35,256 bases of DNA from a virus. Positions 13,516 through 21,460 of the stretch are shown piece after piece. The notes below the pieces were generated by a model. That model did not search any database, was not told the DNA's origin, and saw nothing but the letters and a program-made list of their open reading frames with translations. Within the stretch, counting starts at the first letter, position 1. Each line of letters opens with the position of its first letter. The stretch lies in the UHGV virus genome UHGV-1783823; one strand, given 5' to 3'. A program made the translations under genes and the position numbers.

Positions 13516-13845
13516 TTAATCTGCCAACCTTAAATTGAAATTAACACCAAATTTTTCACATACTTCCAACATATACTCAAGGGAGACGTTACCAGTGAGA
13601 TGGATTATGTTGGATACACGAGCCTGAGAGATACCACAAATTTTAGCAACTTGCTCTTGAGAAAGACCTCTGGATTTAATCTCTCTCTTAAAACGATGTG
13701 CAACGAAATCCCTCATCTCGTCTACATCCATTGGACAAATATAACTCTCCATTTCAGCCTCTCTATCAGCCTCCCAATCATCTTGTGGAGCATAAGGGTC
13801 AAAAACCTCATTCATCTTTCTTCTTCCGTTTACGTGAAGTATCAA
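13516..13845 (-). CDS. Helix-turn-helix DNA-binding protein (XRE-like HTH at C-terminus)
   Basis: LSQEQVAKICGISQARVSNIIHL matches HTH_3-type helix-turn-helix pattern; true start may be the internal Met (MNEVFDPY). Confidence 0.6.
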   Translation of the reverse strand: MILHVNGRRKMNEVFDPYAPQDDWEADREAEMESYICPMDVDEMRDFVAHRFKREIKSRGLSQEQVAKICGISQARVSNIIHLTGNVSLEYMLEVCEKFGVNFNLRLAD

Positions 13846-14021: not shown

Positions 14022-14405
14022 TCAAATACCTGTGCAGCTTCTGTTTTCTAAGAAATACTCAACACCATACATAGCTTTTTGCATCAAATCTTCTTTAAAC
14101 TGGATACGATGATTGAGCATAGCCTGTACATCAATATCATCAGGGTGCTTCTCTTTAATATTTGCAGATTGCAGGAAATACTCTGCAAGAACACGATACT
14201 GATAGTCAGTTACCTTATCAGTCATCTCTGTTAAAGACTCTTCAGAGATTGGTTTAAGTAGTTCACCTTTAGATAGGGCAACACCTTTAACAATCTGGCA
14301 AGTGTCTTCTGGAACACCTGATAAGTCCACATTTGGAAGTTCTGTTGCATTGACTGGTAAATTCATTGCCATAACCATTGCAGCAGCTAATAAAATCTTT
14401 TTCAT
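14022..14405 (-). CDS. Secreted/periplasmic protein with N-terminal signal peptide
   Basis: MKKILLAAAMVMAMNLPVNATE has the n-h-c architecture of a Sec signal peptide with an AxA-like cleavage region. Confidence 0.6.
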   Translation of the reverse strand: MKKILLAAAMVMAMNLPVNATELPNVDLSGVPEDTCQIVKGVALSKGELLKPISEESLTEMTDKVTDYQYRVLAEYFLQSANIKEKHPDDIDVQAMLNHRIQFKEDLMQKAMYGVEYFLENRSCTGI

Positions 14406-14450
14406 AATGACCTCAAAGTTATATTAAATTTTGTATTACATTGAGTATAA

Positions 14451-14497
14451 AAATAAGCTATAACACCTGACTTGTCAACAGATTTTATAGCTTATTT
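14451..14497. promoter_or_regulatory. 13-bp perfect inverted repeat with 21-bp spacer containing a TTGACA hexamer (- strand)
   Basis: AAATAAGCTATAA (14451-14463) and its reverse complement TTATAGCTTATTT (14485-14497); spacer includes TGTCAA at 14473-14478. Confidence 0.5.
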
Positions 14498-14532
14498 GGC
14501 AGATTTTTTATAAGGCTACTGCCATCCTTCCA

Positions 14533-14582
14533 TACCTTACCTAACCAAACCGAACCTCACACAACCAGACCGAGCCGCACCC
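14533..14582. repeat. Pentanucleotide tandem array A, ~10 units, consensus NACCN; G-poor on + strand
   Basis: tacct tacct aacca aaccg aacct cacac aacca gaccg agccg caccc; ACC recurs with exact 5-bp period. Confidence 0.7.
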
Positions 14583-14588
14583 CGCCTT

Positions 14589-14612
14589 ATTAAAAGACCC
14601 TCTTCAAAGACC
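14589..14612. promoter_or_regulatory. Conserved box copy 1 (TTAAAAGACCCTCTTCAAAGACC) following array A
   Basis: ~20 of 24 positions identical to the box at 14749-14771; followed by a 7-bp stem hairpin (AGTCTCA 14626-14632 / TGAGACT 14645-14651). Confidence 0.5.
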
Positions 14613-14664
14613 TTTTAAAAAGGTAAGTCTCATTTTAATGTAGCTGAGACTAACTACCCATACT

Positions 14665-14748
14665 GTACCGCACCTGACCCGACCTGACCAGACCTAACAT
14701 TACCGTGCCACACCGTACCGAACAGAACACTGCCATACCTCACATCAC
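14665..14748. repeat. Pentanucleotide tandem array B, ~16 units, consensus NNACC; - strand reads GGTCT GGTCA GGTCG GGTCA GGTGC GGTAC
   Basis: gtacc gcacc tgacc cgacc tgacc agacc taaca ttacc gtgcc acacc gtacc gaaca gaaca ctgcc atacc tcaca; strict 5-bp register over ~80 bp. Confidence 0.7.
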
Positions 14749-14781
14749 TTAAAAACCCTCTTAGAAGACTCTTAAGTGATG
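14743..14781. promoter_or_regulatory. Conserved box copy 2 (TTAAAAACCCTCTTAGAAGACTC, 14749-14771) embedded in a 10-bp perfect inverted repeat
   Basis: CATCACTTAA (14743-14752) and TTAAGTGATG (14772-14781) are exact reverse complements; the 19-nt loop carries the box core. Confidence 0.5.
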
Positions 14782-14996
14782 CTGGTGAGTACCCGTTGGT
14801 TTATGCTGCTCAGTATACTCACCAAATTTTCTATGTCAACAACTTTTTATATAAAAGTCCTGATAGCTATATGTGTTACAAAACAGAAGATTGTGAACAA
14901 AACACCCATTGCAAAAGATGTGTCCAAAAGCTTACTTGCAATGTATGACAATACAAAGACAACCAGTATAAACAGAATGACTGTACTGAACATAGT

Positions 14997-16100
14997 TTAC
15001 TCATAATCCCTAATAACTAGCCCTACAGGAAACTGTAAAGAACCCTTACGAGTCATCTTCTGGAACTGAACAGTTAAAGGTTTCCCGATAAACTCTTCAG
15101 GATGTTCAGCAAGATACTGTTTCTTCTCATGTGTAGTTTTCCATGAAACATCTACAAAGACGTTAGGAAGAGTCTCTACAACGAACTTACCATGACCACG
15201 CTTATCGGTCTTTACACCAGTCACTTTAAACTCTTCAGTGTGCATCTTCTTGTGCTTAATCAAGAAGTATGAACGGTGACAACACTCATAGAAGGAGTCT
15301 TCAGAGATTGAACGGTACATTGCACCTTCAAACTTAGCTTCAACCCACTTATCATGAGCTTCATCGAACTCTTCCCAAGAGTTAACACGACGAGACTTAA
15401 CAGGAACAACTTTACAGCCATCTCTAAAGTCATTCAATGGTGAAGTCTCAATAATATCTCTACGCTCAGGCCACGTCTTAGTACTATCACAGATATCATA
15501 CCAGTAGAACTTAAGTAAGTGTCTGTCAGGATTGTCTTCATTTTTAATCATGGAGACAATATCTTCTAAGTCCCACCCATGAGCATAAATCTCTCCATCA
15601 AATTCATCAACATCTTTGTGGAGCCTTAACATTGCCATAATGTCGGGTATTAGTTCAGTAGGGATTTTATAAACAGTATTCTCACGAGAGTATGCTGTGA
15701 ATACACTACCAATGCTTAAGTGTCTTGAAATTCTACAACGGACACCATCAAGTTTTGGTTGAGCATCAGCAGGGAACTTCAAATACTTTGCATGGCTAAC
15801 CTTTGCAGCATCATGAGCAAGCTGTACACCCACCTTCTCAGTATTCTGTGCAGACTCTTTTGTGTAAGCATAACCTTTACGGTCAACTTGCTTTTTATAC
15901 TTAGCAGCAACTTCAAAGAGAGCTTGCTGTTCAGCGTCACGCTCATTCTTTTTACCGATGTTTTTAGGTTCTGCTGTATACTCTTCAAACATCATCTTGC
16001 CATTTTCTTTACCATAGGTTGTAATAACTTTGTCACCTACAGCAACACATGACCAGACGTTGAAGGAACCGTCTTTATTTTGTTTGTACAGAATTGTCAT
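14997..16100 (-). CDS. ATP-dependent DNA ligase
   Basis: Nucleotidyltransferase motif I KLDGVRC (KxDGxR, Arg favours ATP-dependent type), DEFDGEIYAHG (motif III-like), EGAMYRS and FLIKHKK (motifs IV/V-like); start set at internal ATG 16100 preceded by RBS AGAGG rather than ORF-track start 16136. Confidence 0.8.
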   Translation of the reverse strand: MTILYKQNKDGSFNVWSCVAVGDKVITTYGKENGKMMFEEYTAEPKNIGKKNERDAEQQALFEVAAKYKKQVDRKGYAYTKESAQNTEKVGVQLAHDAAKVSHAKYLKFPADAQPKLDGVRCRISRHLSIGSVFTAYSRENTVYKIPTELIPDIMAMLRLHKDVDEFDGEIYAHGWDLEDIVSMIKNEDNPDRHLLKFYWYDICDSTKTWPERRDIIETSPLNDFRDGCKVVPVKSRRVNSWEEFDEAHDKWVEAKFEGAMYRSISEDSFYECCHRSYFLIKHKKMHTEEFKVTGVKTDKRGHGKFVVETLPNVFVDVSWKTTHEKKQYLAEHPEEFIGKPLTVQFQKMTRKGSLQFPVGLVIRDYE

Positions 16101-16930: not shown

Positions 16931-17143
16931 TCAGATGTCAATATTAATACGCTCACCCTTAAGGACTCCTGTACGGTCTCTTGCAATCTTACCGTCAACA
17001 ATAAGAATGTGTGCAGACCTTAAAGAATCATGATTAAAACCTTTTACGAACTTACTAGGCATCACTACAATAAGCATCTCCTGAATTAACTCTGGAGTGT
17101 AGCAATTGTCATGAAGTTGCTGAATAACGTCTGCAAGTGTCAT
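16931..17143 (-). CDS. Hypothetical protein
   Basis: 70 aa ORF co-oriented downstream of DNA polymerase. Confidence 0.45.
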   Translation of the reverse strand: MTLADVIQQLHDNCYTPELIQEMLIVVMPSKFVKGFNHDSLRSAHILIVDGKIARDRTGVLKGERINIDI

Positions 17144-17204
17144 ATAACCTCCTATACAAGATACAGTATAAGGTACTCTTCCATGAGCACCTTGTCAACA
17201 CTAA

Positions 17205-19904
17205 TTAGTGAACCTCAAGCCAGCTTTTACCAACCTTACCAGTACCTGTAACAAGCGTTTCTTTCTTAAGACCTAAGTTCTTAGAAGCTTGTCCATAATA
17301 CCAGTCAGTAACTGCTTTCACTTCTGCCGTCATACTTTCTGGACATTCCCAACTTGTTTCATCGTGATATGCACAGAGTAAACGAGCACCAATAGCTGGT
17401 TGACGACCATTTAACTTCATTAAGCCTTCGTCAATCATACGACGGCAAGCAAGGTTAATTGCCTCATTTTGAATCTGAGCCTCTGAACCCATGAGCAAAT
17501 AATTCAACAGCTTATGCGGAGATTTACACCACAACCAAGCTCCAGCAACCTTTACAAAACCCCCTTTAGAGATTGCAGCAGTCTTACCAAACACCTCTTC
17601 AAGTGCCTTTTTAGTTGCTTTGTAGTCAGCTTCCAAGTCATCTAACAGCTTCTTAATTTTAGGCAAACGTATAAAGTAAGTCTGTTTAGTCAGCGCACCT
17701 TCCTGAGTAGTCGCAGCTTTAATCGTCTTAGCAAACTTCTCATCACCTGCACCGAACAGCAGTGCATAGATACCATTCTTAGCTTTCTTACGACCTTTGC
17801 TAATCTCATGAAGAAGATTCTCATCCTGAGTAGCTCGACAAGTCAAGATGTCCTGCTCATCATTCAAGCTAAAGTAAATACTGTTCAGTGTATGTGCATC
17901 AGTCCCTGAATAGACAACGTACAGGTCATTCTCAGAGTCATAGCGAAGGTACTTATCAATCTCTGGGTTGAGGTACTCATCAAAATGTTTGCAGTAATAG
18001 CGTCCATCTTCTTGACGAATGAACTCAATTTCTTCTTTACCTTGCGTTACCGCTTTGGTGAAGTCTTTATCACCCATAAAGTTACAAAGTAGAACTAGCT
18101 GGGCTGAGTTCATATCTACAGAGACAACGTTAGTACCTTCCTCACAAATCCACACTGCCCTCATTGGTTCCCCATAGACAGCAGCACCAGACGGTACGTT
18201 TACAATACCATATTGTGTCATACGTCCAGTTGAAGTACCAAACACCATTGCACCAGCACTAAGGCGACCATCAGGACGAATCTGGTTCAACCAACCTTTT
18301 TCATCATCCTTTGAGTTCTCAATAGTTCTGCGTCGGTGCATCAAAGTATAGTACTTAGCAATCTTCTGTCCAAGCTCACCTTCAATCGTATCATAAGATG
18401 ATTCAGTAAGTTTTGGTGAAGTACGGATTAAGCAAGGCTCAAGCAAATCTGTGTACTTCTTCACAGACCAGTTATGCTCAATGTACTGTACACCTTCATG
18501 TTCAACATAGCTCAAACCACACCGCTCAACCATTTCCTGCCACTTAGGATGTTTTGTAATCATCTTTTTATTGTCTTTGAAACGACAAACTTTGACAGGG
18601 CGACCGTCTGAGTCTTTCTTGTAGTTCCAGTCATCTGGAATCCAACCAACTGATTTCAAGTAGTCTTTTACAACTGCTACCTGAGTCATACGAGAAACTT
18701 CAAACTCAATTGGTGTATATGGTGCATCAATCAATCCTGTGTAGCGACTTGACTCAAGTTCAAAGTGGTTAACAACGTGGCTGTTATAGTACTTCACAGT
18801 TTTGACTGTTTTTACTGGCTTCCAGTCTTTGCATTTCTTACCAATCTTTGCATTCAACTCATTGCAAATTGCACGAGCATCCTTCATTGCTACAAAGCCT
18901 TCCTTGTACTCTTCACCAGTTACAGAGTTGGTTGGTGTATAGCAATTTCTCTTTTCAATGTTAAAAATCTTTGTAGTTGGCTTACCAAATGGTTTGATTT
19001 CATAAGTCTGCATCTCACCATTACGCACCTGCTGACGATACTTCGTCTTAGGGTACTTGGTAATTCTTTTCAGTCCATCTGCATGACCAAATGCTTCAAC
19101 ATACTCATTCCAAGCTTTTGCAAACTCTTCTCCAGTGACTTTACCTTTGGTCTTAATAGTTGGAGGTAGATGTGGTTCAACCTCTGAAGCAAGCTCATTA
19201 GTCAACTTGTCAAGTTCCTTTACATGGAACTCCATAAGCTCTTTATCAGCTTTCCAACCATTGATAGCTTGTTGACTCATCCAGAAAGATGTTTCTTTAG
19301 CTCGCATATAGGTTTCATAAGTGTCTATACCACACTTCTTAAGCTTCAGGTATTCATTATCCAGTGCACGTTTAGTTTTGGCGTTAATACGGATATCTTC
19401 TACAACACGAGTGAAGATTTCTGCATTCCACACACCCCAATGTTCAATCTCTGGTTTACGGACACCAACACGAGCACCCCATGCAGCCAAGCCATGAGCA
19501 CCTTTATAGCCTTTTGGAGTTGGTCTATCCATCCACTGAACACGAGACTGGATAAGAGAATCCTGAAAGAAATTACTCCACGGTTTACACTTTGGATTAT
19601 CAAAGTTCCACAAATCAGGTGCAATGTGATTGAAAACCCACCAGTCATATCCTAGACCATTGTGGATGCAAAGTCGTTTTGCCTTTAACGCAAACTCAAT
19701 ACCTTCACGTAAGCCGCCCTTAATGTACTTGGTATACTTGTGACCGAGGATAGGCTCATCTGTAAAGACCCATACAGGTGGCTCTTCATCGTCAGATTTA
19801 TAGTCTGCGAAAGCCATTACGTGCACTTTAGTGAACTCAAGGAGTAAACCATCAGTTTCTGTATCACCAACTAAATGTAAGTTTTTAAAATCTACGTTTT
19901 CCAT
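17205..19904 (-). CDS. DNA polymerase, family A (Pol I/T7-like) with 3-prime-5-prime exonuclease domain
   Basis: Exo I motif DTETDGL; motif A VDMNSAQL; motif B RKKAKNGIYALLFGAG; motif C AYHDE; start set at ATG 19904 preceded by RBS GAGGGAG (ORF-track start 19934 has no RBS). Confidence 0.9.
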   Translation of the reverse strand: MENVDFKNLHLVGDTETDGLLLEFTKVHVMAFADYKSDDEEPPVWVFTDEPILGHKYTKYIKGGLREGIEFALKAKRLCIHNGLGYDWWVFNHIAPDLWNFDNPKCKPWSNFFQDSLIQSRVQWMDRPTPKGYKGAHGLAAWGARVGVRKPEIEHWGVWNAEIFTRVVEDIRINAKTKRALDNEYLKLKKCGIDTYETYMRAKETSFWMSQQAINGWKADKELMEFHVKELDKLTNELASEVEPHLPPTIKTKGKVTGEEFAKAWNEYVEAFGHADGLKRITKYPKTKYRQQVRNGEMQTYEIKPFGKPTTKIFNIEKRNCYTPTNSVTGEEYKEGFVAMKDARAICNELNAKIGKKCKDWKPVKTVKTVKYYNSHVVNHFELESSRYTGLIDAPYTPIEFEVSRMTQVAVVKDYLKSVGWIPDDWNYKKDSDGRPVKVCRFKDNKKMITKHPKWQEMVERCGLSYVEHEGVQYIEHNWSVKKYTDLLEPCLIRTSPKLTESSYDTIEGELGQKIAKYYTLMHRRRTIENSKDDEKGWLNQIRPDGRLSAGAMVFGTSTGRMTQYGIVNVPSGAAVYGEPMRAVWICEEGTNVVSVDMNSAQLVLLCNFMGDKDFTKAVTQGKEEIEFIRQEDGRYYCKHFDEYLNPEIDKYLRYDSENDLYVVYSGTDAHTLNSIYFSLNDEQDILTCRATQDENLLHEISKGRKKAKNGIYALLFGAGDEKFAKTIKAATTQEGALTKQTYFIRLPKIKKLLDDLEADYKATKKALEEVFGKTAAISKGGFVKVAGAWLWCKSPHKLLNYLLMGSEAQIQNEAINLACRRMIDEGLMKLNGRQPAIGARLLCAYHDETSWECPESMTAEVKAVTDWYYGQASKNLGLKKETLVTGTGKVGKSWLEVH

Positions 19905-19934
19905 TTTTACTCCCTCTAAAATCATTAACCTCAT

Positions 19935-20161
19935 ACATTACTGCAAAAAATTATAAAAAGCAAGTTGACAATGTACTTGACAAGGTGTTAATCTTTGCGA
20001 AGTGGGTTTTTACTTAAAAGGTTACTTAACAGTTTAACTATACAGATACTTTAAAACTCTTAAAAGATTATTTAATAGCTTTTAAAAAGCTTTAAAGTAT
20101 AACGTATAGAATACGTTAAGATAAAAGATTAAAACTTAATAGTTACTTAAAAGAGGCTTAC
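19935..20161. promoter_or_regulatory. Divergent AT-rich control region between polymerase (-) and rightward operon (+)
   Basis: - strand TATAAT (+ coords 19950-19955); two + strand TTGACA hexamers (19965-19970, 19977-19982); near-palindrome AGCTTTTAAAAAGCT (20077-20091); perfect 8-bp inverted repeat TAACGTAT-AGA-ATACGTTA (20100-20118) overlapping a TAGAAT -10-like hexamer; repeated TTACTTAAAAG. Confidence 0.5.
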
Positions 20162-20584
20162 ATGCAGAAAATGTTTGTTCACCCAGACATAGCTGACTTT
20201 GTTAGAGCTTTGCAGAAGTTGGAAGAACTTGACATTGCTGCTCAACGGGAATATGCTCACCATCACAGGAGAATGATTGATATACAACATGAAATAGAGT
20301 TGTCTGAAAACTATGAAGATGATTTAAAATGCTCTGTATTTGAGCATATGAAAGATGTTGCTACAGCGAGACGTAAAGCTAAAGACACAGTTGCTTTACT
20401 AGATTCTCTTAAAAAGAGATTGCAAAGTGGTACAGGCCTGTGTAATCTAGCGTCACTGATTAATGATGTTGAAACTTCTTGGGATAGACATTACTATCCA
20501 CGTTCTGAAAAGACACTTGACTTTTCTTCATCCGAAAACTTAAAATGTTCTAGAAAGAAACTTAACCAACTGAGAGAGAAATAA
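20162..20584 (+). CDS. Hypothetical protein
   Basis: 140 aa; RBS AAAGAGG upstream; first gene of rightward operon. Confidence 0.55.
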   Translation: MQKMFVHPDIADFVRALQKLEELDIAAQREYAHHHRRMIDIQHEIELSENYEDDLKCSVFEHMKDVATARRKAKDTVALLDSLKKRLQSGTGLCNLASLINDVETSWDRHYYPRSEKTLDFSSSENLKCSRKKLNQLREK

Positions 20585-20585
20585 T

Positions 20586-21398
20586 ATGAATATCGATGTA
20601 GAAAAGATGCTTGAAGAGAAAGGTGTTGATGAAGCATTCTTAATCAATGCCGTAGAAAGCATGGCTATGATTCTTCGTGGTAACAACTACACAGAACAGT
20701 TTATGCCTGCAAGCTATAACTTGCCTAAAGACAAGTCTGATAACGGTGCTTTTGCAGAACAGGTTAATATGATGCTGTGTGACAAAACACTTGCTTTAGC
20801 ATCTATTGTTGTAGGTGTTGATGCTCTTGCAGAGTTCATTTTTTATGAGATGCAGAAAAATGACTATATTGCCATGACCTCTGAAGAAAAAGACTCGCTA
20901 CTGCTCTTAGATAATAATGAGCTAGTTGACCTGTTAATTTCGTCAACGAGTGCTGTTATGGCTGCTCTTGAGAAGCGAATGGAAGAGAAGCTGTCACGAT
21001 ATGAAAAGCTTGATTGGGGTGTAGAGGAATTAAACCCACGAATCAAAGAGATTATCCAGCAAACAAAAGATTCTTTAGAAGAAGCTGTGAAAGATGATTC
21101 TGTAGCTGATGTAGAACCACTTCAGGTGAAAGTTGCATTGATGATTCCAGCCATCTCTACGATGATGAATATAGTTGCACTAATACAGCTTTCACAGATG
21201 ATGGGCACAAGCATTGAGTTCATTGAGAGTATGACTGGTGGTGTGAGTATGCAAGCAATCAATGATGTTCTGGTGAGCATTGGTGCTTCAATCATTGAAG
21301 AGAAGCTGCGCATTAACTTTGGTGATGATTTTGTGAAGCAAATCTCAGCTATGGCTGAAAAAGAGTATTCACAGACTAATACTGACCAACTGCACTAA
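20586..21398 (+). CDS. Hypothetical protein
   Basis: 270 aa ORF 2 nt downstream of previous gene; no motif recognised. Confidence 0.55.
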   Translation: MNIDVEKMLEEKGVDEAFLINAVESMAMILRGNNYTEQFMPASYNLPKDKSDNGAFAEQVNMMLCDKTLALASIVVGVDALAEFIFYEMQKNDYIAMTSEEKDSLLLLDNNELVDLLISSTSAVMAALEKRMEEKLSRYEKLDWGVEELNPRIKEIIQQTKDSLEEAVKDDSVADVEPLQVKVALMIPAISTMMNIVALIQLSQMMGTSIEFIESMTGGVSMQAINDVLVSIGASIIEEKLRINFGDDFVKQISAMAEKEYSQTNTDQLH

Positions 21399-21416: not shown

Positions 21417-21441
21417 AAGCCTCCTTAGTTGGGGGCTTTTT
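21417..21441 (+). terminator. Rho-independent terminator-like hairpin
   Basis: AAGCCTCC / GGGGGCTT stem (one G-U pair) with 6-nt loop and T-run. Confidence 0.55.
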
Positions 21442-21460
21442 AGTAATTAAGGGAGATAGA

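What the first reader, a model, noticed from the sequence alone, without database searches (positions are those of the whole stretch)
19935..20161. Divergent control region with operator-like dyads between polymerase and the rightward operon
The 227-bp AT-rich spacer between divergent operons contains a - strand consensus TATAAT ~45 nt upstream of the polymerase start, two + strand TTGACA hexamers 12 bp apart, a near-palindrome AGCTTTTAAAAAGCT, and a perfect 8-bp inverted repeat TAACGTAT-AGA-ATACGTTA whose centre overlaps a TAGAAT -10-like hexamer ~50 bp upstream of the first rightward gene. This is the classic repressor-operator-over-promoter arrangement. An HTH protein is encoded at 13516-13845.
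Basis: partly seen in the sequence, partly recalled or inferred. Interest (0 to 1): 0.55.

Follow-up and report, generated by a model that had tools for sequence, protein, structure and literature searches.

The report
Felix O1-type phage early control region
This spacer is the strongly conserved early control region of a Felix O1-like phage: two back-to-back host-type promoters followed by a 160-base AT-rich leader.

Summary
The window is a Felixounavirus (about 98% identical to phage LMP33). Taken alone, only the pair of TTGACA hexamers beats chance: an 8-bp inverted repeat arises in 20% of shuffles and TATAAT in 39%.

Comparison across six Ounavirinae lineages changes the picture.
- The polymerase starts at 19904, so the spacer is 257 bp.
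- The rightward promoter is TTGACA(19965)-18-TGtTAATCT(19994), conserved in every lineage.
- The leftward promoter is most likely TTGCTT(19963-19958)-17-TAATGT(19940-19935).
- Bases 20001-20161 would be a transcribed leader. It evolves far more slowly than synonymous sites, is the AT-richest stretch of the genome, and carries a cluster of CTTAAnAG repeats.
- The dyad lies at about +100 to +118. Two compensatory base-pair changes show its symmetry is selected, but it is unique in the genome.
- The Cro/CI-type HTH protein is real and occurs only in the clade that has the dyad and the second TTGACA. Its recognition helix does not covary with the dyad.

Verdict: a real control region, with the operator-over-promoter reading only partly supported. 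Nothing here has been tested experimentally.

The parts
17205..19904 (-). DNA polymerase (family A) CDS, with the conserved start codon at 19904 rather than 19934
   Evidence: ORF list. Annotated as DNA polymerase in LMP33, SUSP2, Sf13 and Mordin, the last three starting at the position equivalent to 19904.
19910..19916 (-). Ribosome-binding site GAGGGAG of the polymerase gene
   Evidence: Read from the sequence. Invariant in the seven-sequence alignment.
19935..19963 (-). Proposed leftward promoter P_L: -35 TTGCTT (19963-19958), 17-bp spacer, -10 TAATGT (19940-19935)
   Evidence: The -35 has 0 of 6 variable columns, the spacer 12 of 17, and the -10 keeps T1, A2 and T6 in 25 distinct sequences. 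It is the only - strand candidate conserved in position in all nine representatives. It is strong in Arno18 (11.6) and P778 (8.9) but weak here (6.0-6.3). Inferred, no start-site data.
19950..19955 (-).
   Evidence: Present. Replaced by GAAACT, CAAAAA or GAAGAT in SUSP2, Sf13 and Mordin (my reading of the alignment). No -35 partner. TATAAT occurs in 39% of shuffles.
19965..19994 (+). Rightward early promoter P_R: -35 TTGACA (19965-19970), 18-bp spacer, extended -10 TGtTAATCT (19986-19994)
   Evidence: Matrix score 12.3, rank 15 of 352,250 positions in the window. It is the best or second-best + strand hit in all nine representatives of six lineages, 148-168 nt upstream of the ATG. The same -35 is annotated as a promoter in GenBank MZ726792.
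19965..19983 (+). Twin boxes TTGACAA-N5-TTGACAA. Each box is itself a near-palindrome (TTG-N-CAA).
   Evidence: Boxes have 0 of 7 and 1 of 7 variable columns; the five bases between them have 4 of 5. The same block occurs only twice in the 88-kb genome, here and at the other divergent promoter, LMP33 72096. Only a single box was read at this promoter in Arno18, P778 and Kolesnikvirus, and a single + strand box at P778's second locus; these genera lack the HTH gene.
20001..20161 (+). Conserved AT-rich leader, the predicted 5' untranslated region of the rightward operon
   Evidence: 81-83% identical to three other genera, against 54-61% at third codon positions of the adjacent gene. It is the AT-richest 150-bp stretch of the LMP33 genome (79%), and the global minimum of cumulative GC skew (LMP33 26232) lies in the same intergenic region, about 25 bp left of P_R. 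No Rfam match. Folding z-score only -1.87.
20013..20153 (+). Cluster of five exact CTTAAnAG repeats (starts 20013, 20025, 20059, 20135, 20146), all on the + strand, plus looser copies
   Evidence: Five copies against 0.09 expected, reached in 0 of 5000 dinucleotide shuffles of the leader. It is the densest cluster in the window and on the + strand of the genome. Related repeats fill the same position in Arno18, P778 and Kolesnikvirus. Spacing is irregular; periodicity ranks only in the top 2-6%.
20077..20091 (.). 7-1-7 palindrome AGCTTTT-A-AAAAGCT
   Evidence: Present. Pairs are broken without compensation in SUSP2, Sf13 and ESh22. An inverted repeat of 7 bp or more arises in 51% of shuffles. 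No evidence that the symmetry matters.
20100..20118 (+). Dyad or hairpin TAACGTAT-AGA-ATACGTTA
   Evidence: Perfect 8-3-8 repeat. Unique in the window and genome. Two pairs change on both sides and stay complementary: A-T to T-A, and C-G to T-A in Mordin, Moogle and SKent. Hairpin energies are -5.8, -4.9 and -3.5 kcal/mol. Absent from Arno18, P778 and Kolesnikvirus.
20107..20112 (+). -10-like TAGAAT, a possible secondary promoter P2
   Evidence: Kept as TAnnnT in the HTH-bearing clade (TAACAT in the Mordin group). TAGAAT is retained at about the same place in Arno18 and P778. In Arno18 it has a partner, TTAACA-18-TAGAAT, score 10.2. In the window no -35 partner exists.
20151..20164 (+). Ribosome-binding site AAGAGG and ATG of the first rightward gene
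   Evidence: Read from the sequence. AGAGG is invariant.
20162..21398 (+). First two rightward genes: a 140-aa protein of unknown function (PHROG 4039) and a 270-aa protein annotated 'minor tail protein' (PHROG 4251)
   Evidence: The SUSP1 'tail protein' agp048 is Fit in CRISPRi-ART (PMC11879866 supplement); matching it to the 270-aa gene is my inference from the SUSP2 gene order.
21421..21443 (+). Intrinsic terminator ending the first rightward transcription unit
   Evidence: Terminator scan. Annotated at the same place in wV8, Mordin and ASO1B.
13516..13845 (-). Cro/CI-type (XRE family) HTH protein. Homologues are annotated from the ATG at 13815, giving 99 aa.
   Evidence: Pfam HTH_3 E = 6e-10; PHROG 1373 'transcriptional regulator' E = 1.5e-26. 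The helix-turn-helix region is nearly invariant in six orthologues. tblastn finds it in 261 records, all Felixounavirus, Suspvirus or Mooglevirus apart from 2 Zymomonas records.

Best explanation
The spacer is the early control region of a Felix O1-type phage and has two halves.

The left 90 bp holds two back-to-back promoters for the host sigma-70 RNA polymerase. Their -35 elements are 1 bp apart.
- P_L is TTGCTT-17-TAATGT. It should start transcription about 24 nt before the polymerase ATG at 19904.
- P_R is TTGACA-18-TGtTAATCT. It should start near 20001.

The right 160 bp is then transcribed as a long, AT-rich leader under strong sequence constraint, ahead of the first rightward gene. It carries a one-strand cluster of CTTAAnAG words and a small stem-loop (20100-20118) whose base-pairing is maintained by selection. 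The transcription unit ends at the terminator at 21421-21443.

So the dyad is a leader element at about +100 to +118, not an operator on the main promoter. The better candidate for a site where a regulator would block P_R is the second TTGACAA box, which lies inside the P_R spacer.

Shown here: the motifs, their conservation pattern, the compensatory changes, the promoter scores and their positional conservation.
Inferred: that these promoters fire, where transcription starts, and what the leader does.
For: Identity: Felixounavirus, 97.9% to LMP33.

Early transcription: Felix O1 ORF 96 (the polymerase) is transcribed within 5 min. Divergent promoters between genes 96 and 97 were assumed by Whichard et al. 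2010, who found none there (PMC3185647).

P_R:
- Rank 15 of 352,250 positions in the window.
- Present at a constant 148-168 nt from the ATG in nine representatives of six lineages.

P_L:
- Fixed hexamers with a variable 17-bp spacer.
- The only - strand candidate conserved in position in all lineages.

Leader:
- 81-86% identity for the spacer against 54-66% at third codon positions.
- The AT-richest 150 bp of the genome.
- Repeat cluster reached in 0 of 5000 shuffles, all copies on the transcribed strand.

Dyad: RNAalifold keeps it, and both covarying pairs of the whole leader fall in it.

Paralogue: a second control region (LMP33 72096) has the same twin box, the same ACTTAAAAGGTT word 47-48 nt from box 1, and its own hairpin (-8.1 kcal/mol).
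Against: - No transcription start sites have been mapped for any member of this subfamily in the literature I could search.
- P_L scores poorly in the window itself (6.0-6.3). Two other - strand candidates score as well or better: TTATCT-17-TATACT at 20124-20096, and TTTAAG-16-TATAGT at 20064-20037. The second is the one annotated in GenBank MZ726792.
- The hairpin is weak (-3.5 to -5.8 kcal/mol).
- Apart from the hairpin the leader shows no covariation, and its fold is not significantly better than shuffles (z = -1.87).
- The two compensatory events are only two, on a small tree.
- Nucleotide-level constraint on the leader fits a DNA-level role (protein binding, replication origin) as well as an RNA-level one.
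Confidence: 0.55

Rival explanations
1. The TAACGTAT-AGA-ATACGTTA dyad is the operator of the phage's Cro/CI-type HTH protein. When bound, the protein blocks a promoter whose -10 is the TAGAAT at the centre of the dyad.
For: - The dyad is 19 bp with half-sites 11 bp apart, a normal geometry for an HTH dimer (sequence).
- Its symmetry is selected.
- The HTH protein is real and occurs only in the clade that has the dyad.
- TAGAAT is kept as TAnnnT in the HTH-bearing clade and retained in Arno18 and P778. In Arno18 it has a -35 partner, so a second promoter close to the gene may be ancestral.
Against: - In the window TAGAAT has no -35 and no TG extension.
- The dyad occurs only once in the genome.
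- The recognition helix QxRVSN is identical in clades with ACGTAT and ATGTAT half-sites. The paired changes therefore look more like maintained base-pairing than a change of protein specificity.
- The clade-level co-occurrence reflects a single evolutionary event.
- The regulator is not among the Fit or Semi-fit genes of SUSP1. That screen has false negatives.
Confidence: 0.2
2. The twin TTGACAA boxes (19965-19983), not the dyad, are the HTH protein's operator. Binding there would cover the -35 and spacer of P_R, and of the second twin-box promoter elsewhere in the genome. It would shut off both early divergent promoters together, in the manner of Cro.
For: - Box 2 has no promoter role but is nearly invariant (1 of 7 variable columns), while the five bases between the boxes vary.
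- The 19-bp block is dyad-symmetric, because TTGNCAA is its own near-complement (sequence).
- It occurs exactly twice in 88 kb, at the two divergent promoters, and is conserved at both in three genera.
- Only a single box was read in genera lacking the HTH gene: at this promoter in Arno18, P778 and Kolesnikvirus, and at P778's second locus, where the SPARTY region is arranged differently.
Against: - There is no binding evidence.
- The co-occurrence again rests on one clade.
- Box 2 could serve RNA polymerase itself, for example as an alternative sigma region 4 contact, or another factor.
- The regulator's knock-down gave no fitness call in SUSP1.
Confidence: 0.2
3. The promoter plus the AT-rich leader is a transcription-activated origin of replication, of the kind known in T7 (the primary origin: promoters followed by an AT-rich region) and T4 (oriF and oriG: a promoter plus a downstream unwinding element). 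The P_R transcript would open or prime the AT-rich stretch. This can coexist with the promoter function.
For: - The leader is the AT-richest 150 bp in the genome (79% AT).
- The global minimum of cumulative GC skew falls about 25 bp left of P_R, in the same intergenic region. The only other local minimum is at the second twin-box region.
- It lies directly downstream of a strong conserved promoter, between the polymerase and primase/helicase operons.
- Short repeats are clustered there.
- The comparison with T7 and T4 origins comes from my own knowledge, not from a tool.
Against: - The skew minimum coincides with the switch in gene orientation, which produces the same signal on its own.
- Unwinding elements are usually conserved in composition rather than base by base, but here the sequence itself is conserved.
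- The repeats are 8-bp words at irregular spacing, not iterons.
- No initiator protein is known for these phages, and no origin has been reported for them.
Confidence: 0.2
4. The dyad and the palindrome are by-products of AT-rich sequence with no function of their own. Only the promoters and the ribosome-binding site matter.
For: An 8-bp inverted repeat arises in 20% of shuffles and a 7-bp one in 51%. The 7-1-7 palindrome is not maintained. The dyad is absent from three more distant genera.
Against: In the seven-sequence alignment, all four substitutions in the seven core pairs of the dyad are compensated and none is uncompensated. The whole leader evolves much more slowly than synonymous sites.
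Confidence: 0.1

Closest known systems
Back-to-back divergent sigma-70 early promoters of virulent coliphages that rely on the host RNA polymerase
   Same: TTGACA-type -35, TAnnnT -10, 17-18 bp spacers, and two promoters with adjacent -35 elements that drive the genes needed first. The Felix O1 polymerase is transcribed within 5 min (PMC3185647).
   Different: P_R has a second, conserved TTGACAA box in its spacer and a 160-nt conserved leader. P_L is a weak match in this genus. No start site has been mapped.
Lambdoid Cro/CI repressor-operator systems (XRE-family HTH on palindromic operators overlapping promoters)
   Same: The phage encodes a Cro/CI-type HTH protein. The region holds 19-bp dyad-symmetric elements, and one of them (the twin boxes) overlaps the core of a promoter.
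   Different: The phage is virulent. There are no tandem operators. No covariation between protein and site. No binding data.
Promoter-plus-AT-rich-region origins of T7 (primary origin) and T4 (oriF, oriG). The comparison is from my own knowledge.
   Same: A strong promoter is immediately followed by the most AT-rich stretch of the genome, next to T7-like replication genes (family A polymerase, primase/helicase).
   Different: Host polymerase rather than a phage RNA polymerase (T7) or a MotA-dependent middle promoter (T4). The region is conserved base by base. No replication data exist.
Pattern-based promoter annotation of this same spacer in GenBank MZ726792 (phage ASO1B; PMC10612097)
   Same: It uses the same -35 (window 19965) for the rightward promoter and also predicts divergent promoters in this spacer.
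   Different: It pairs the -35 with GTTAAT at 16 bp. It places the leftward promoter at 20063-20037 (TATAGT), which would face P_R rather than sit back to back with it. Dyad, twin box, leader and repeats are not annotated.

Membership tests
Sigma-70 promoter (P_R, 19965-19994) | -35 and -10 hexamers close to consensus with a 16-18 bp spacer | tested here: met
   TTGACA-18-TAATCT with a TG extension. Score 12.3, rank 15 of 352,250. The simple consensus scan did not list it, because TAATCT matches only 3 of 6.
Sigma-70 promoter (P_R, 19965-19994) | Conserved in position and hexamer identity among relatives | tested here: met
   Best or second-best + strand hit in nine representatives of six lineages, 148-168 nt from the ATG. 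Box 1 has 0 of 7 variable columns.
Sigma-70 promoter (P_R and P_L) | A mapped transcription start 6-8 nt downstream of the -10 | not testable with these tools
   No start-site data found for Ounavirinae. Only RT-PCR timing exists (PMC3185647).
Sigma-70 promoter (P_L, 19963-19935) | -35 and -10 hexamers close to consensus | tested here: inconclusive
   TTGCTT-17-TAATGT scores only 6.0-6.3 here (top 0.16%). The positional equivalents score 11.6 in Arno18 and 8.9 in P778. Fixed hexamers and a variable spacer support it.
   No partner at 15-19 bp. The hexamer is lost in the other genera.
Repressor-operator over a promoter (Cro/CI type) | A dyad-symmetric site of about 14-20 bp | tested here: met
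   8-3-8 perfect dyad. Symmetry kept through two double changes.
Repressor-operator over a promoter (Cro/CI type) | The site overlaps the -35 to +1 region of an active promoter | tested here: not met
   The dyad lies at about +100 to +118 of P_R. The TAGAAT it covers has no -35 in this genus.
Repressor-operator over a promoter (Cro/CI type) | Further copies of the operator in the genome | tested here: not met
   No other site with 3 or fewer mismatches in the window or the 88-kb LMP33 genome.
Repressor-operator over a promoter (Cro/CI type) | A cognate DNA-binding protein is encoded | tested here: met
   HTH_3 E = 6e-10. Its distribution matches the dyad-bearing clade.
Repressor-operator over a promoter (Cro/CI type) | The protein binds the site | not testable with these tools
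   Needs a band-shift or footprinting experiment. As an indirect test, the recognition helix does not covary with half-site changes.
Structured cis-acting leader RNA (riboswitch, nut or put type) | Match to a described family, or a conserved fold supported by covariation | tested here: not met
   No Rfam hit at E of 1 or below. Folding z = -1.87. Of 46 predicted pairs only the two in the small hairpin covary.
Transcription-activated phage origin (T7 or T4 type) | A promoter followed by an AT-rich unwinding region near the replication genes | tested here: met
   AT-richest 150 bp of the genome, directly after P_R, between the polymerase and primase/helicase operons.
Transcription-activated phage origin (T7 or T4 type) | Replication shown to start there | not testable with these tools
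   The GC-skew minimum at the site is confounded by the switch in gene orientation.
Iteron array | Direct repeats of about 17-22 bp at regular spacing | tested here: not met
   The repeats are 8-bp words 7-15 bp apart. Periodicity ranks only in the top 2-6% of genome windows.

The most novel reading that the evidence does not exclude
Felixounavirus, Suspvirus and Mooglevirus may have a small early regulon. Two paralogous control regions would both be switched by the clade-specific Cro/CI-type protein: this one, and the one ahead of the tRNA and structural unit. Each has a twin TTGNCAA box over the promoter, an ACTTAAAAGGTT word at about +12, and a conserved AT-rich leader with a hairpin. In addition, the AT-richest leader (this one) may double as a transcription-activated origin of replication. 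That would answer the question Whichard et al. left open in 2010: how timing is controlled in a phage with no RNA polymerase or sigma modifier of its own.
Probability: 0.15. Interest if true: 0.55.

Novelty: new member of a known kind. Interest (0 to 1): 0.35.

Why it matters
Felix O1-type phages are widely used for Salmonella typing and biocontrol, and SUSP1 is a model "superspreader" phage. How they time gene expression is still unknown. The 2010 genome paper looked for promoters in this very spacer and reported none.

A comparative map of this spacer gives precise and cheap targets for start-site mapping, band shifts and reporter fusions. The map covers two back-to-back promoters, a twin-box element shared with one other promoter, a leader more conserved than the neighbouring genes, and a covarying hairpin.

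The kind of element is ordinary: an early divergent promoter region with a possible regulator site. The value lies in annotation and experimental design, not in a new principle.

Tried and rejected
- **Rfam search of 19800-20300** at E of 1 or below found nothing.
- **Whole-leader RNA structure.** The minimum-free-energy fold is a long imperfect hairpin centred near 20073, but z is only -1.87 and no pair outside the small dyad covaries. Rejected as a structured RNA.
- **Phased A-tracts or bent DNA.** Fourier analysis places the leader only in the top 2-6% of genome windows, so I dropped the claim that the repeats are phased.
- **A family of promoters built on TAGAAT.** No extended motif is shared among the TAGAAT or ATAGAAT sites of the genome.
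- **Covariation between the HTH and the dyad.** The recognition helix is invariant, so there is no signal.
- **Host-factor sites.** By eye I found no IHF, CRP, DnaA-box or Fis consensus in the spacer. This was not a formal scan.
- **T4 MotA-box resemblance.** AAGCTTTA lies 12 bp upstream of TAGAAT, but it is not conserved in Arno18 and no MotA or AsiA is known in these phages. Dropped.
- **Structure of the 140-aa first gene product.** Only 6 homologues were found. The AlphaFold2 model had pLDDT 61.5 and pTM 0.36 and was all-helical, too poor for a fold search.
- **PDB sequence search with the HTH protein.** It returned only a designed repeat protein and PezA, which is uninformative.
- **IMG/VR scans.** They added almost no diversity beyond GenBank.
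- **Two literature searches with loose term settings** returned nothing relevant.
- **One dyad search with the wrong spacing** should be ignored.
Full report
**What the window is.** A 2.5-kb piece around the finding is 97.9% identical to Escherichia phage vB_EcoM_LMP33, and 261 phage records match, nearly all Felixounavirus, Suspvirus or Mooglevirus of the subfamily Ounavirinae. The finding lies where two operons diverge. To the left are the family A DNA polymerase, ligase, a Cro/CI-type regulator, dihydrofolate reductase and thymidylate synthase. To the right are a 140-aa protein of unknown function, a so-called minor tail protein, dNMP kinase, primase/helicase, an exonuclease and ribonucleotide reductases. 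This is the gene 96/97 spacer of Felix O1. Whichard et al. (2010) assumed divergent early promoters there and reported finding no sigma-70-like sequence. They also noted that the phage has no RNA polymerase or sigma modifier of its own, and that its temporal control is unknown (PMC3185647).

**Checking the observation.** One correction is needed. The conserved polymerase start is 19904, preceded by GAGGGAG. SUSP2, Sf13 and Mordin are annotated there, so the spacer is 257 bp. In dinucleotide-preserving shuffles of those 257 bp:
- a perfect inverted repeat of 8 bp or more appears in 20% of trials;
- one of 7 bp or more appears in 51%;
- TATAAT appears in 39%;
- two TTGACA appear in 0.2%.

On sequence alone, only the TTGACA pair is unusual.

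**Conservation.** The spacer is 81-86% identical between the window and SUSP2, Sf13, Mordin and S.Kent 1-2-1. Third codon positions of the flanking polymerase and 140-aa genes are 54-66% identical, and the 140-aa protein is only 60-74% identical. The spacer is therefore under strong purifying selection. In 25 distinct sequences the variable columns fall in a clear pattern:

| Segment | Variable columns |
|---|---|
| TTGCTT (19958-19963) | 0 of 6 |
| 17 bp to its left | 12 of 17 |
| First TTGACAA | 0 of 7 |
| Second TTGACAA | 1 of 7 |
| Five bases between the boxes | 4 of 5 |
| Six bases between RBS and ATG | 5 of 6 |

**Promoters.** A position-weight scan ranks TTGACA(19965)-18-TGtTAATCT(19994) 15th of 352,250 positions in the window. 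The equivalent TTGACA-17/18-TAnnnT is the best or second-best + strand hit in nine representatives of six lineages. These include Pectobacterium phage Arno18, Yersinia phage P778 and two Kolesnikvirus species. It always lies 148-168 nt from the start codon. The second TTGACA has no -10 partner at any allowed spacing.

It lies in the variable spacer of TTGCTT(19963-19958)-17-TAATGT(19940-19935). That candidate is weak here (score 6.0-6.3). It is nevertheless the only - strand candidate conserved in position in all lineages, and its equivalents are strong in Arno18 (TTGACC-17-CATACT, 11.6) and P778 (8.9). The two -35 elements are 1 bp apart, a back-to-back arrangement.

Two other - strand candidates score similarly: 20124-20096 (-10 TATACT) and 20064-20037 (-10 TATAGT). 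GenBank record MZ726792 annotates the second of these, together with a + strand promoter that uses the same -35 as mine (method in PMC10612097). The leftward assignment therefore remains an inference.

**The leader.** If P_R fires, transcription starts near 20001 and bases 20001-20161 form a 5' leader.
- It is the AT-richest 150-bp stretch of the 88-kb LMP33 genome (79% AT). The global minimum of cumulative GC skew lies in the same intergenic region, about 25 bp left of P_R.
- It contains five exact CTTAAnAG words, all on the + strand, against 0.09 expected. None of 5000 shuffles reached that number (the motif was chosen after seeing the data).
- It is the densest such cluster in the window and on the + strand of the genome.
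- Looser versions (CTTAACAG, CTAAACAG, CTTTAAAG, CTTAATAG) fill the same place in all the distant genera.
- Spacing is irregular, and periodicity is not exceptional.
- There is no Rfam match, and the fold is not significantly better than shuffles (z = -1.87).

**The dyad.** It lies at about +100 to +118 of P_R. RNAalifold retains it, and the only two covarying pairs among 46 predicted fall in it. These are A-T to T-A between Felixounavirus and the other genera, and C-G to T-A in Mordin, Moogle and S.Kent. In that alignment no substitution in the seven core pairs is uncompensated. The hairpin is weak, at -5.8, -4.9 and -3.5 kcal/mol. The dyad is unique in the window and in the genome, and Arno18, P778 and Kolesnikvirus lack it.

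The TAGAAT at its centre is kept as TAnnnT in the HTH-bearing clade. TAGAAT is retained at about the same place in Arno18 and P778, and in Arno18 it has a -35 partner (TTAACA-18-TAGAAT, 10.2). Kolesnikvirus has a different strong promoter about 30 nt from the gene. A second promoter close to the gene may therefore be ancestral, but in the window it has no -35. The AGCTTTTAAAAAGCT palindrome is broken without compensation in three lineages.

**The HTH protein.** tblastn finds it in 261 records, all Felixounavirus, Suspvirus or Mooglevirus apart from 2 Zymomonas records. The neighbouring 140-aa gene is found in 300 records, which also include Erwinia, Pectobacterium, Hafnia and Yersinia phages. 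The regulator thus co-occurs with the dyad and with the second TTGACAA box, but this reflects a single clade. Its recognition helix (QxRVSN) is invariant across clades whose dyad half-sites differ. This fits maintained base-pairing better than a change of protein specificity. In the CRISPRi-ART screen of SUSP1 the polymerase and the gene annotated 'tail protein' (agp048) are Fit; from the SUSP2 gene order I take agp048 to be the second rightward gene. The regulator is not listed as Fit or Semi-fit. The authors note that the screen has false negatives (PMC11879866, Supplementary Discussion C).

**A paralogous control region.** The block GTTGACAAnGTACTTGACAAGGTG occurs exactly twice in the LMP33 genome: here, and at the other divergent spacer (LMP33 72096, the P41 of Felix O1). 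The second copy is followed by:
- a -10 (TAGGCT) at 17 bp;
- the same ACTTAAAAGGTT word at the same distance (47-48 nt from box 1);
- further CTTAAAAG-type words;
- its own hairpin, AGATATC-N6-GATATCT (-8.1 kcal/mol);
- a ribosome-binding site embedded in CTTATAAGAGG.

That leader is nearly invariant across three genera. In P778, which lacks the HTH gene, the equivalent promoter has a single + strand TTGACA, and the Hafnia phage SPARTY region is arranged differently. Each TTGNCAA box is its own near-complement, so the twin box is a 19-bp dyad-symmetric element lying over the -35 and spacer of the promoter.

**Conclusion.** The most likely reading (confidence about 0.55) has two parts. The first is a pair of back-to-back sigma-70 early promoters. 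The second is a long, sequence-constrained, AT-rich leader containing a selected stem-loop. Three further readings remain open at about 0.2 each, and they are not mutually exclusive: the dyad as the HTH operator, the twin box as the HTH operator, and the promoter plus AT-rich leader as a transcription-activated replication origin. The kind of element is known. Divergent promoters here were assumed in 2010 and have been annotated by pattern matching in GenBank. The twin-box paralogy, the leader's constraint, the repeat cluster and the covarying hairpin do not appear in the literature I could search.

Noticed in passing
window 19904-19934: The longest polymerase ORF starts at ATG 19934. The conserved start is ATG 19904, preceded by GAGGGAG. 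By my reading of the alignment, Sf13 has an in-frame TGA between the two, and three genera are annotated at the shorter start.
   Followed up: yes
outside the window: L031 27050-27260 (LMP33 72050-72260): A second control region with the same twin TTGACAA box, the same ACTTAAAAGGTT word, its own hairpin and an almost invariant leader. It lies ahead of a DUF5681 gene whose SUSP1 homologue (agp130) is among the top-scoring Fit genes in the SUSP1 CRISPRi-ART screen.
   Followed up: partly
outside the window: L031 about 17450-18900 (LMP33 62450-63900): About 1.4 kb of almost entirely non-coding DNA (only two short annotated hypothetical ORFs) between converging transcription units. It is packed with CTTAAAAG, CTTATAAAG, CTGTTAAG and CTTGTTAG words in both orientations. 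It shows the strongest 10.25-11.25 bp periodicity of AG and TTA in the genome. Its function is unknown.
   Followed up: partly
window 14405-14997 (- strand): A 593-bp non-coding stretch upstream of the operon that contains the HTH gene. It holds two strong sigma-70-like promoters (-35 at 14839 and 14478), a 10-bp-arm hairpin (CATCACTTAA...TTAAGTGATG), GGT-rich repeats, and CTTAAGAG / CTAAGAGGG words. LMP33 carries three extra ORFs at this place.
   Followed up: no
window 20229-20257: A near-consensus promoter, TTGACA-17-TATGCT (score 13.8, higher than P_R), lies inside the 140-aa gene, 67 nt after its ATG. Its conservation was not checked.
   Followed up: no
window 20586-21398: A gene annotated 'minor tail protein' (PHROG 4251) sits in the earliest replication operon. 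The SUSP1 'tail protein' agp048, which by SUSP2 gene order I take to be its homologue, is Fit. The annotation looks doubtful given where the gene lies.
   Followed up: no
window 17143-17205: The window lacks the HNH endonuclease gene that LMP33 and ASO1B carry just downstream of the polymerase. A promoter, TTGACA-17-TACCTT (-35 at 17198, - strand), sits at the junction.
   Followed up: no
L024 and L035, positions equivalent to window 19995-20023: In Sf13 and ESh22 a second + strand promoter candidate, TTGCGA/TTGCGG-17-TAGACT (scores 10.3-10.9), lies 30 nt downstream of P_R; Mordin scores only 6.8. The window has AAGGTT in place of the -10, so it lacks this candidate.
   Followed up: partly
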